From: a virus | Reading direction: 5' to 3' (one strand) | UHGV virus genome: UHGV-2173514 | DNA: 11,755 bases | Part shown: positions 125-560 of the stretch, piece after piece | Layout of the letters: each line of letters opens with the position of its first letter | Position numbering within the stretch: position 1 is the first letter of the stretch | The notes under the pieces: model-generated | Told to the model about the DNA's origin: nothing | Database searches by the model: none | Seen by the model: the letters and a program-made list of their open reading frames with translations, nothing else | Position numbers and translations under genes: made by a program

Positions 125-165
125 AAAAGAAAACCCGCAGTTTTTACGCTGCGGGCTTGTTGTTC
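125..165 (-). terminator. Rho-independent terminator, likely 3' end of the hok-like mRNA
   Basis: 7-bp stem cccgcag (134-140) / ctgcggg (149-155); on the minus strand the stem is followed by ttttcttttt (complement of 125-133). A weaker T-rich tract also follows on the plus strand. Confidence 0.55.
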
Positions 166-249
166 ACGTCAACTGGAAATAGGGTGCCTTTTCGACCTTT
201 ACCCTGGCAACCGATTGACGGGGAAGTTGCCTTCCCCGTCGCGGTTTCC

Positions 250-390
250 TTACTGCTTACACTGTAAGAACGCCGCAAACTCCGCTCCCCAGAAACTCAT
301 CCGTATTTCACACAGCGAACCGTGCAGCATCCAGATGATGAGGATTGCCGTCACGCAGAATGTGATGGCCGTAAGCGATTTTTGCGACAT
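250..390 (-). CDS. hok: Hok/Gef-family type I toxin (small membrane peptide, 46 aa)
   Basis: Not in the ORF track (under 60 aa). Minus-strand ATG at 390-388 lies 8 nt after an AAGGAG RBS (complement of 399-404). Translation MSQKSLTAITFCVTAILIIWMLHGSLCEIRMSFWGAEFAAFLQCKQ has a hydrophobic N-terminal helix followed by the SLCEIR and E-x-AAF motifs of plasmid R1 Hok (KSLCEIRYRDGHREVAAF). Stop TAA at 252-250. Confidence 0.7.
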   Translation of the reverse strand: MSQKSLTAITFCVTAILIIWMLHGSLCEIRMSFWGAEFAAFLQCKQ

Positions 391-560
391 AGCGCTTGCT
401 CCTTTTTCGNNNNNNNNNNNNNNNNNNNNNNTAACCTATCACTTGCTGAGGGTAGATGGTTAGGGCCTCGGGTTAACGTTAAAGTTGACTCGGGGCCTTT
501 CCACATCTGGCCTTCGGGTATTCCCTCCGACCATCAGCCGAAAGGCACCCGCACGTAATC
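391..560 (-). ncRNA. Putative hok mRNA leader with expected overlapping mok frame and antisense Sok-type RNA (boundaries not resolved; partly masked by N 410-431)
   Basis: By analogy with hok/sok loci, the toxin ORF is preceded by a long structured leader. Region 440-560 is rich in GC inverted repeats (for example ggcctttcc / ccgaaaggc) and has no convincing ORF. The antisense RNA would be on the plus strand. Inference only. Confidence 0.3.
410..431. other. N-run (22 nt): assembly gap or masked sequence
   Basis: Literal n characters, immediately upstream of the hok-like start and RBS on the minus strand. Confidence 0.99.

What the first reader, a model, noticed from the sequence alone, without database searches (positions are those of the whole stretch)
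125..560. Hok/Gef-family type I toxin locus downstream of ogr
A 46-aa ORF missed by the 60-aa track has a strong RBS, a hydrophobic transmembrane N-terminus and the Hok-family SLCEIR ... E-x-AAF signature. It is followed by a perfect 10-bp hairpin (gacggggaag / cttccccgtc, 225-248) and a terminator, and preceded by a long, highly structured leader. This matches the hok/sok organisation (toxin mRNA with fold-back elements plus an antisense RNA). A post-segregational killing or abortive-infection module at the edge of the tail/late region is a plausible accessory cargo. Part of the leader, where the overlapping mok frame and antisense target would lie, is hidden by the N-run at 410-431.
Basis: partly seen in the sequence, partly recalled or inferred. 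Interest (0 to 1): 0.7.

Follow-up and report, generated by a model that had tools for sequence, protein, structure and literature searches.

The report
Prophage hok/sok toxin-antitoxin cassette

Summary
The 46-aa ORF at 250-390 (-) is a real Hok/Gef toxin gene. It scores 29.9 bits on Pfam PF01848 (cut-off 22). RefSeq annotates it as 'Hok/Gef family protein', and about 1,100 complete E. coli genomes hold at least 80% of window 1-900.

The identical peptide is entry 72_1621 in a 2026 bioRxiv Hok catalogue. It is not among the 3 of 45 tested homologues reported as non-toxic.

The surrounding RNA has the R1 hok/sok architecture:
- a 5' end at 550 that pairs perfectly with 181-198 (tac/fbi), and this pairing covaries across 12 distinct loci;
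- an alternative tac/ucb pairing;
- a terminator at 131-158;
- a conserved antisense promoter (TTGCTC, 17 nt, TAACCT) driving a Sok-like RNA at about 445-503 (+).

The 22-N run stands for 9 nt (GCGCCUCCC). These form the dcb/anti-SD element and part of the sok promoter spacer.

The one departure from R1 is the leader ORF. No start codon follows the GAGG that corresponds to the R1 mok Shine-Dalgarno. The ORF present here (AUG at 506) is broken in about a quarter of sister loci.

Novelty: already known. Interest is low.

The parts
557..585 (-). hok promoter: -35 TTGCCG (585-580), 17-nt spacer, -10 TAGATT (562-557); transcription start inferred at G550
   Evidence: Read from the sequence. A TAnnnT sits 6 nt before the conserved GGGYGC 5' end in 15 of 16 related loci. 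It matches 8/12 consensus positions, so it falls below the 9/12 threshold of the promoter scan. The start site is inferred, not mapped.
124..550 (-). Full-length hok mRNA, about 420 nt, from the inferred +1 to the terminator T-run
   Evidence: MFE -172.6 kcal/mol, z = -6.8. Stx-phage homology spans 182-571. Rfam sok RF01794 aligns from model position 1 at window 550.
536..550 (-). tac element (mRNA nt 1-15, GGGUGCCUUUCGGCU)
   Evidence: It pairs with fbi in the full-length fold and with ucb in the 3'-truncated fold. Inverted repeats I1 and I6.
308..506 (-). Leader ('mok-like') ORF: AUG at 506-504 preceded by GAAGG (515-511). It is 61 codons once the 22 N are replaced by the true 9 nt, overlaps the hok SD and start in the +2 frame, and stops at 310-308
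   Evidence: L001 3308..3493 (-). In the window it appears as two broken ORFs (351..506 and 308..442) only because the N-run length shifts the frame. It is not conserved: in about 24 of 87 sister loci no frame from this start reaches the hok SD.
491..497 (-). ucb / anti-SD box GGCCCCG (nt 54-60)
   Evidence: It pairs with CGAGGCC (nt 81-87) in the closed form and with tac in the open form. GCCCC is invariant in the 15-locus alignment.
466..469 (-). GAGG (nt 82-85), homologous to the R1 mok Shine-Dalgarno
   Evidence: Invariant GAGGC in alignment A3. R1 positions are from PMC9841398. No AUG/GUG/UUG follows it at SD spacing in this cluster.
396..437 (+). sok promoter: -35 TTGCTC (396-401), 17-nt spacer (8 visible nt plus the 9 nt under the N-run), -10 TAACCT (432-437)
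   Evidence: TTGnnn-17-TAnnnT is found at the homologous place on the antisense strand in 15 of 16 loci, including the R1-type plasmid locus. The TTG and TA...T positions are invariant or nearly invariant columns of A3.
445..503 (+). Predicted Sok antisense RNA, about 59 nt: single-stranded 5' tail, 16-bp hairpin, UUUCC tail. It is complementary to hok mRNA nt 48-106
   Evidence: Fold -29.8 kcal/mol, z = -4.8. The P88, Stx-phage and R1-type counterparts show the same architecture. The ends are inferred from the promoter, and the transcript has not been observed.
410..431 (-). N-run masking mRNA nt 120-128 (GCGCCUCCC): the dcb / hok anti-SD element and part of the sok promoter spacer
   Evidence: Alignment with an otherwise identical E. 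coli chromosome and with P88 and Stx phage. It pairs with the hok SD in the closed fold and with GAGGC in the open fold.
399..404 (-). hok Shine-Dalgarno AAGGAG
   Evidence: P(paired) is 0.98 in the full-length model.
250..390 (-). hok toxin gene, 46 aa (Hok cluster 72, peptide 72_1621; WP_000078916.1)
   Evidence: Pfam PF01848 29.9 bits against a cut-off of 22. PHROG 251. PGAP annotation. Identical peptide in Table S2 of bioRxiv 10.1101/2025.08.07.668861.
217..240 (-). 3' stem-loop GACGGGGAAG-GCAA-CUUCCCCGUC (nt 298-321). It is the presumed stop for 3' exonucleolytic trimming and the end of the active, truncated mRNA
   Evidence: Perfect 10-bp inverted repeat, -19.2 kcal/mol. A hairpin is present at this place, with different sequences, in all related loci. 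The role is taken from the R1 data in PMC9841398.
181..198 (-). fbi element (nt 340-357, AGGUCGAAAAGGCACCCU)
   Evidence: RNAduplex with tac gives -25.7 kcal/mol; 1 of 200 shuffles does as well. There are 2-4 Watson-Crick pair types at 5' positions 7-13 across 12 loci.
124..158 (-). Intrinsic terminator of hok mRNA. P88-homologous DNA ends at about 124, and host serS-flanking DNA follows
   Evidence: Terminator scan. P88 and Chuche matches begin at 124 and 117. serS lies 56 nt left of window position 1.

Best explanation
This is an intact hok/sok-type type I toxin-antitoxin cassette. It is carried as the last functional unit of a P88-like (Xuanwuvirus, P2 family) prophage inserted next to serS.

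Shown here by sequence, comparison and folding:
- A weak promoter at 557-585 (-) would give a transcript of about 420 nt.
- The first 15 nt of this transcript (tac, 536-550) pair with nt 340-357 (fbi, 181-198).
- In this closed form the ucb box pairs with the GAGG box, and the GCGCCUCC element (under the N-run) pairs with the hok SD.
- When the 3' end is removed back to the stable hairpin at 217-240, the predicted fold switches. tac pairs with ucb, and GAGGC pairs with GCCUC, forming the hairpin that an antisense RNA would attack.
- A conserved promoter on the + strand (396-437) would make a Sok-like RNA of about 59 nt (445-503), complementary to leader nt 48-106.

Inferred from the R1 and hokW-sokW paradigms:
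- Sok is abundant but short-lived, and it pairs with the processed mRNA, which RNase III then destroys.
- When Sok synthesis stops, the stable hok mRNA pool is translated. This could follow loss of the prophage, host transcription shut-off by an infecting phage, or prophage induction.
- The 46-aa Hok then inserts into the inner membrane and kills or arrests the cell.

The step that couples refolding to hok translation (mok in R1) is not resolved for this cluster.
For: Toxin:
- Pfam HOK_GEF 29.9 bits against 22; PHROG 251 at E = 1e-22.
- TM helix at residues 5-23; conserved C12, T14, L26, C27, E28, E37.
[quoted passage not shown] It is not among the 3 of 45 homologues reported as non-toxic.

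RNA architecture:
- Perfect 10-nt 5'/3' complement, extended to 15 pairs.
- Compensatory changes at 5' positions 4 and 7-16 across 12 loci.
- Consensus structure on 15 loci: 91% of cells paired, against 82% in shuffles and 38-45% for slid partners. 24 pairs change on both sides, against 14 +/- 2 in shuffles (0/500).
- The closed-to-open switch is reproduced by ViennaRNA for the window sequence and most sister loci.
- Rfam sok RF01794: E = 2.7e-8 on the unmasked sequence.

Antitoxin:
- TTGnnn-17-TAnnnT conserved in 15 of 16 loci.
- Sok-like fold with z = -4.8, and the same shape in the R1-type locus.

Context and prevalence:
- About 1,100 of 5,426 complete E. coli genomes hold at least 80% of window 1-900.
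- The gene is the terminal gene of many IMG/VR prophage contigs.
- A prophage-borne paralogue, hokW-sokW, is an experimentally proven type I TA (PMC8621323).
Against: - No transcript data: neither promoter reaches the 9/12 threshold of the consensus scan, and both RNA ends are inferred.
- The Rfam match stays below the gathering score (42.8 bits against 59). The NCBIfam HokA equivalog is far below its cut-off (34 bits against 89).
- No R1-type mok start follows the GAGG box. The leader ORF present here is interrupted in about a quarter of sister loci that encode the same toxin.
- The hok SD stays mostly paired even in the truncated model, so the activation step is not explained.
- There is no PADLOC model hit. 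The Hok catalogue found no enrichment of hok near defence systems.
- The covariation counts use a structure derived from the same alignment, which favours it.
Confidence: 0.88

Rival explanations
1. Biological role A: prophage addiction. Cells that lose the prophage, by excision without replication or by deletion of this end, lose Sok first and are killed by Hok made from the stable mRNA. This keeps the prophage in the population.
For: This is the established role of R1 hok/sok on plasmids (PMC9841398). The cassette sits at the extreme prophage edge. It is retained even in a strain whose neighbouring gene D is truncated. Type I TAs are reported to help maintain prophages (preprint text).
Against: There is no experiment on this locus. 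Deleting hokW-sokW from Sp5 did not affect growth under normal conditions (prophage stability was not reported there).
Confidence: 0.35
2. Biological role B: lysis helper on induction. Sok disappears when the prophage is induced, Hok is made before holin and endolysin, and this speeds up and increases phage release.
For: This was shown for the prophage paralogue hokW-sokW. sokW RNA vanishes after mitomycin C, HokW appears about 1 h before the endolysin, and phage yield halves without the locus (PMC8621323).
Against: That system is a different Hok cluster (HokD-like, 51 aa) in a lambdoid phage. Nothing in this window links sok transcription to induction.
Confidence: 0.3
3. Biological role C: abortive infection or superinfection exclusion. 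An incoming lytic phage shuts off host transcription, Sok decays, and Hok kills the cell before progeny form.
For: A phage-defence role for Hok is cited in the Hok catalogue. From my own knowledge, R1 hok/sok has been reported to exclude T4. P2-like prophages are known carriers of defence cargo (own knowledge).
Against: hok is not enriched next to defence systems. There is no PADLOC model hit.
Confidence: 0.25
4. The locus is a decaying, silent relic, like several K-12 chromosomal hok loci. The toxin ORF survives but is never expressed.
For: The leader ORF is not maintained among sister loci, both promoters are weak by consensus, and the hok SD is predicted to be paired in both RNA forms.
Against: Every structural element is intact and covaries. 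The peptide is identical in 80 of 80 best IMG/VR loci despite 46 distinct DNA haplotypes of leader plus CDS, although that set was chosen by peptide identity. No IS element or rearrangement is present. The peptide is toxic when expressed.
Confidence: 0.07

Closest known systems
hok/sok (parB) of plasmid R1
   Same: - Small Hok toxin with the SLCE core.
- Leader of about 147-170 nt beginning GGGYGC / GGCGC.
- tac/fbi 5'-3' fold-back, with ucb pairing to a GAGG box.
- Alternative tac/ucb and GAGGC/GCCUC (dcb) pairings after 3' trimming.
- Protective 3' hairpin.
- Antisense promoter TTGnnn-17-TAnnnT at the homologous place, and a Sok with a 5' tail plus a long hairpin.
   Different: - Only 30% peptide identity, and 46 aa against 52 aa.
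- DNA is too diverged for blastn.
- No start codon follows the GAGG box where R1 mok starts.
- The only leader ORF starts about 40 nt further upstream (AUG at nt 45) and is not conserved.
- The locus is chromosomal and prophage-borne rather than on a plasmid.
Hok cluster 72 (peptides 72_1621 and 72_1589) in Escalera-Maurer et al., bioRxiv 10.1101/2025.08.07.668861
   Same: 72_1621 is the identical 46-aa peptide. It is listed as a high-abundance cluster and was tested for toxicity. The paper also reports that hok is enriched in prophages.
   Different: That work analysed only the coding sequence. Mok, Sok and the mRNA structure were deliberately left out. The RNA elements mapped here are therefore not described there.
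hokW-sokW of Stx2 prophage Sp5 (E. coli O157 Sakai)
   Same: It is a prophage-borne hok/sok locus shown by experiment to be a type I TA, with an antisense RNA from its own promoter and dependence on RNase III and Hfq.
   Different: It is a different paralogue: 51 aa, MKQQKAM..., HokD-like, cluster 35. It sits in a lambdoid phage. Stx phages carry a cluster-72 copy as well, next to lom, 78% identical in DNA to window 182-571.
HokA of E. coli K-12
   Same: It is the best named match: NCBIfam HokA, 34 bits, E = 2e-8, with 46% identity and a shared EFAAFL.CK tail. The leader has the same elements.
   Different: The score is far below the equivalog cut-off of 89, and the peptide is 46 aa against 50 aa. 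It is not a HokA orthologue.
gp52 of Escherichia phage P88 and relatives (Xuanwuvirus), annotated 'MokW-like host killing'
   Same: Same gene in the same place, after gene D and ogr at the genome end. DNA identity is 91-93% over window 124-900 and the peptide is 98% identical.
   Different: The sequence of the Sok hairpin loop differs. A UAA closes the leader ORF in P88.

Membership tests
Pfam PF01848 Hok/Gef toxin family | Whole-protein score at or above the curated gathering score (22 bits) | tested here: met
   29.9 bits, E = 4.1e-7; residues 7-44 match profile positions 5-42 of 42.
Pfam PF01848 Hok/Gef toxin family | N-terminal transmembrane helix followed by the conserved (S)LCE core, with conserved C, T and E residues | tested here: met
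   Kyte-Doolittle above 2 for residues 5-23. M1, C12, T14, L26, C27, E28 and E37 are invariant with HokA and R1 Hok. They correspond to the positions conserved in more than 80% of peptides in the preprint logo.
Pfam PF01848 Hok/Gef toxin family | Toxic to the cell when expressed | not testable with these tools
   Literature only. The identical peptide 72_1621 was in the 45-homologue arabinose-induction assay. The three non-toxic ones named there are other peptides.
[quoted passage not shown] | Long-range tac/fbi pairing of the mRNA 5' and 3' ends | tested here: met
   Perfect complement 182-191/541-550. 15-pair duplex at -25.7 kcal/mol. Compensatory changes across 12 loci. The pairing is retained by RNAalifold.
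[quoted passage not shown] | Alternative open conformation after 3' trimming: tac/ucb stem and SD-box/dcb stem, with a protective 3' hairpin | tested here: met
   ViennaRNA predicts the switch for the window sequence and for most cluster-72 loci. The hairpin at 217-240 is conserved in position. This is prediction only; no probing data exist.
[quoted passage not shown] | Cis-encoded antisense Sok RNA with its own promoter, complementary to the leader | tested here: met
   A promoter motif is conserved in 15 of 16 loci, with a Sok-like fold. Whether the transcript exists is not testable here.
[quoted passage not shown] | Overlapping mok reading frame whose translation is needed for hok translation | tested here: inconclusive
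   The window has a 61-codon ORF from AUG nt 45 that crosses the hok start. It does not start where R1 mok starts. In about 24 of 87 sister loci no frame from that start reaches the hok SD.
Rfam RF01794 (sok) | Covariance-model score at or above the gathering score (59 bits) | tested here: not met
   27.7 bits on the masked window and 42.8 bits (E = 2.7e-8) on the unmasked relative. The match is on the hok-sense strand and covers the full model length. The leader is homologous but outside the curated family threshold.
NCBIfam NF007290 HokA (equivalog) | Score at or above 89 bits | tested here: not met
   34 bits.
hokW-sokW (Sp5) | HokW peptide (51 aa, MKQQKAM...) | tested here: not met
   The primer and Table S2 sequences show that HokW is in cluster 35. 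The window peptide is in cluster 72.
Catalogued anti-phage defence systems (PADLOC-DB 2.0) | Match to any defence-system protein model | tested here: not met
   No family at E <= 1.

The most novel reading that the evidence does not exclude
In Hok cluster 72 the R1-type mok has been lost. Translation control may work differently in one of two ways. It could use a non-homologous upstream leader ORF with overlapping AUG45/GUG47 starts in two frames, whose initiation region is covered by the 3' part of Sok rather than the 5' part. Or it could work with no leader ORF at all, purely through the dcb/anti-SD hairpin that the N-run hides. That would make this common prophage cassette a natural mok-independent variant of the textbook system.
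Probability: 0.25. Interest if true: 0.35.

Novelty: already known. Interest (0 to 1): 0.14.

Why it matters
It matters little as a discovery. The gene is annotated in RefSeq. About one in five complete E. coli genomes holds at least 80% of window 1-900, which includes it. The exact peptide has been catalogued and tested.

The work here adds three things:
- an element-by-element map of the regulatory RNA for this prophage cluster, which the published catalogue did not attempt;
- the identity of the masked 9 nt;
- the observation that the mok step of the R1 model does not transfer cleanly to this cluster.

The role of hok/sok in P2-like prophages (retention, exclusion or lysis timing) is still open, and this very common locus could be used to test it.

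Tried and rejected
1. Equating the locus with hokW-sokW, as the phage annotation 'MokW-like' suggests. Rejected: HokW is a different, HokD-like peptide.

2. The idea that 3' truncation alone frees the hok SD. An early run suggested it, but with the SD indexed one to three nt too far 5'. With correct indexing the SD stays 65-98% paired across loci. Not claimed.

3. A conserved mok frame. No start codon follows the GAGG box. The hok+2 frame is closed in P88, S. enterica and Stx-phage copies and in 20 of 80 IMG/VR loci. Re-analysis from the AUG45/GUG47 starts gave a mixed picture.

4. The consensus promoter scan found nothing on either strand. The promoters were instead located by comparison.

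5. blastn against plasmids did not reach the R1/F hok loci. An R1-type locus was fetched by tblastn with the R1 Hok peptide instead.

An alignment was used instead.

7. Inverted repeats 341-350/580-589 and 352-361/585-594, and the 9-mer TTCACACAG/CTGTGTGAA linking ogr and hok, were judged to be chance. By my own estimate about 4 and about 0.5 such matches are expected.

8. PADLOC gave no hit.

9. The other low-scoring Rfam hits at 54-220 (miRNA, leader and Qrr models, E = 0.005-1) are terminator hairpins and were dismissed.
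Full report
**Observation**

The window carries, on the minus strand, a 46-aa ORF at 250..390: MSQKSLTAITFCVTAILIIWMLHGSLCEIRMSFWGAEFAAFLQCKQ.
- It is preceded by AAGGAG at 399-404, 8 nt before the AUG.
- Residues 5-23 are strongly hydrophobic.
- A minus-strand intrinsic terminator lies at 158-131, with its T-run extending to 124.
- ogr is at 595-855 (-), Pfam Ogr_Delta 52.4 bits. 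Gene D is at 896-2137 (-).

The most telling feature was not in the finding. It is a perfect 10-nt inverted repeat, 182-191 / 541-550, with 349 nt between the arms.

**Source of the window**

Window 1-900 is identical, apart from the N-run, to E. coli chromosomes. There serS ends 56 nt to the left of window position 1, and PGAP annotates the ORF as 'Hok/Gef family protein' WP_000078916.1. About 1,100 of 5,426 complete E. coli genomes have at least 80% of window 1-900.

The whole window is 99.5% identical to E. coli prophages and 92-95% identical to phages P88, P884B11 and Shae_phiSM (Xuanwuvirus, Peduoviridae). Homology to P88 ends at window 124, directly after the hok terminator. The cassette is therefore the last unit of the prophage. 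Many IMG/VR prophage contigs end right after this gene.

**The masked bases**

In the identical E. coli chromosome, in P88 and in an Stx phage, the 22-N run corresponds to 9 nt, GCGCCTCCC in mRNA sense. All numbering below uses the unmasked mRNA, with nt 1 at window 550.

**Toxin**

| Library | Result |
|---|---|
| Pfam HOK_GEF | 29.9 bits (gathering score 22) |
| PHROG 251 'MokW-like host killing' | E = 1e-22 |
| NCBIfam HokA equivalog | 34 bits (cut-off 89) |

The peptide is therefore a Hok but not HokA. It shares M1, C12, T14, S25-E28, E37 and A39-F41 with HokA and R1 Hok.

The identical peptide is entry 72_1621 in Table S2 of the Hok catalogue, bioRxiv 10.1101/2025.08.07.668861. It belongs there to a high-abundance 60%-identity cluster and was cloned for arabinose-induced toxicity tests. 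The text states that 42 of 45 homologues were toxic and names the three that were not. 72_1621 is not one of them. The same paper shows that hok is enriched about four-fold in prophages. It also says that Mok, Sok and the mRNA structure were not analysed.

**RNA architecture**

The R1 model, as summarised in PMC9841398, has two states.
- The full-length mRNA is closed by a tac/fbi 5'-3' stem, with the mok SD held by ucb.
- Slow 3' trimming back to a protective hairpin lets tac pair with ucb and the SD box pair with dcb. This form is both translatable and a target for Sok, after which RNase III destroys the duplex.

The window sequence reproduces this model element by element.

1. The 413-nt transcript folds at -172.6 kcal/mol (z = -6.8), with nt 1-15 paired to nt 342-356.
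2. The tac/fbi duplex gives -25.7 kcal/mol. Homologous duplexes exist in 16 loci from Escherichia, Salmonella, Citrobacter, Serratia, Erwinia, Kalamiella and Mixta, and in an R1-type plasmid. In most of them no shuffled 5' end does as well.
3. Across 12 distinct loci, 5' positions 7-13 each show 2-4 different Watson-Crick pair types.
4. RNAalifold on the 15-locus alignment keeps tac/fbi, ucb/GAGG, the GC(G/C)(C/U)...(A/G)(C/G)GC helix that closes over the hok SD, and several helices inside the ORF.
5. On that structure 91% of cells are paired, against 82% in column shuffles and 38-45% when partners are slid. 24 pairs change on both sides, against 14 +/- 2 in shuffles (0 of 500). The structure was derived from the same alignment, which favours it.
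6. In the full-length fold, GGCCCCG (nt 54-60) pairs with CGAGGCC (81-87), and GCGCCUCC (120-127, the masked bases) pairs with the hok SD GGAG (136-139).
7. Truncated after the 217-240 hairpin, the fold switches. tac pairs with nt 53-59, and GAGGC (82-86) pairs with GCCUC (122-126). Most of the cluster-72 loci folded show the same switch.
8. The Rfam sok model RF01794 begins with the hok 5' end and ends at the start codon, so in effect it models the leader. It aligns over its full length on the minus strand. The score is 27.7 bits on the masked window and 42.8 bits (E = 2.7e-8) on the unmasked sequence, still under the gathering score of 59.

**Antitoxin**

The + strand carries TTGCTC (396-401), a 17-nt spacer (8 visible nt plus the 9 masked nt) and TAACCT (432-437).
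- The pattern TTGnnn-17-TAnnnT occurs at the homologous position in 15 of 16 loci, including the R1-type plasmid locus.
- The TTG and the T, A and final T of the -10 box are invariant or nearly invariant columns of the alignment.
- A transcript starting about 7 nt downstream (G445) and running to about 503 has a single-stranded 5' tail of about 12-17 nt, a 16-bp hairpin and a UUUCC tail. It folds at -29.8 kcal/mol, z = -4.8.
- The P88, Stx-phage and R1-type counterparts have the same shape, although their hairpin sequences differ.
- This RNA is complementary to leader nt 48-106, which includes the ucb and GAGG boxes and the loop of the open-form hairpin.

The hok promoter (TTGCCG at 585-580, 17 nt, TAGATT at 562-557, +1 at 550) is supported in the same comparative way. 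Neither promoter passes the 9/12 consensus scan. Both RNAs remain unobserved.

**The mok problem**

R1 mok starts a few nt after the GAGG box. In this cluster no AUG, GUG or UUG sits there.

The unmasked window has a 61-codon ORF from AUG nt 45 (window 506). It is preceded by GAAGG, crosses the hok SD and AUG in the +2 frame and ends at window 308. In the window as given it looks like two broken ORFs, because 22 N replace 9 nt.

Nearly all cluster-72 loci keep GAUGUGG at nt 44-50, which gives AUG45 and GUG47 in two frames. Which of the two frames crosses the hok start depends on 1-nt differences in leader length. In C. braakii the ORF ends in UGAUG on the hok AUG. In about 24 of 87 loci that encode the same toxin, however, both frames stop 19-71 nt before the hok AUG.

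The hok SD is predicted to remain mostly paired even in the truncated form. The coupling step is therefore unresolved. This is the only respect in which the locus departs from the paradigm.

**Relation to hokW-sokW**

The phage annotation 'MokW-like' is a PHROG family label. The experimentally studied hokW-sokW of Sp5 encodes a different, HokD-like 51-aa toxin. Stx phages also carry a cluster-72 copy next to lom, 78% identical in DNA to window 182-571. These limits delimit the mobile cassette, from fbi to the -10 region of the hok promoter.

The hokW-sokW work shows that a prophage hok/sok can be a true type I TA. Its Sok disappears on induction, and Hok then hastens lysis and doubles phage release.

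**Function**

The molecular mechanism is well supported by homology and comparison. The biological role is inferred. Three roles are compatible with the same trigger, which is loss of Sok supply:
- prophage retention;
- help with lysis on induction;
- abortive infection.

None can be separated with sequence data. No PADLOC model matches, and the catalogue found no enrichment of hok near defence systems.

**Verdict**

The locus is a known kind of system and a known cluster, and the exact peptide has already been tested. Interest is low. What is left over is the non-R1 leader ORF in this cluster.

Noticed in passing
window 410-431, 3785-3819, 6873-6917: There are three N-runs in the window. The first stands for only 9 nt in every relative, so run length does not reflect the true length and creates an artificial frameshift in the leader ORF.
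   Followed up: partly
window about 7786-8403 (-) and flanking 8420-10253: A recombinase / DNA invertase gene lies between opposed tail-fibre and tail-fibre-assembly genes. This looks like a Gin/Cin-type invertible host-range segment, as annotated in the matching E. coli prophage and in P88-like phages.
   Followed up: no
L004 (plasmid pMTY1886_IncFII) 440-505: In this R1-type hok locus the upstream AUG after the GAGG box is in frame with hok (57 nt upstream, no stop codon). It would give an N-terminally extended Hok rather than a frame-shifted Mok as in R1 proper. PGAP annotates only a 33-aa internal piece.
   Followed up: partly
L005, L006, L009, L014 (genome contigs): Assemblies labelled Planococcaceae UBA3378, Vagococcus sp. 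WN89Y, Xanthomonas pisi DSM 18956 and Moraxella osloensis carry E. coli-type hok loci. Three of the four sit on contigs of under 5 kb; the Vagococcus contig is 226 kb. Contamination with enterobacterial DNA is the likely explanation.
   Followed up: no
L032, L034, L038 and about 45 other IMG/VR loci: The predicted prophage contigs end exactly 3 nt after the hok stop codon. The database boundaries cut off the hok 3' UTR (hairpin, fbi and terminator), so analyses based on those contigs miss half of the regulatory RNA.
   Followed up: partly
window 63-92: A strong bidirectional-looking terminator hairpin (12 bp) lies in host DNA between serS and the prophage end. It is presumably the serS terminator.
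   Followed up: no
window 896-2137 (-) versus L001 3883-4683: Gene D is full length in the window and in strain NR363. It is truncated to 801 nt, with a pseudogene fragment beside it, in strain 4/1-1. That strain still keeps hok and ogr intact, so the cassette persists in a decaying prophage.
   Followed up: no
window 341-361 and 580-594: Two 9/10 inverted repeats link the hok coding region with the hok promoter / ogr 3' region. They could matter only for read-through transcripts from ogr. By my own estimate about four such matches are expected by chance.
   Followed up: partly
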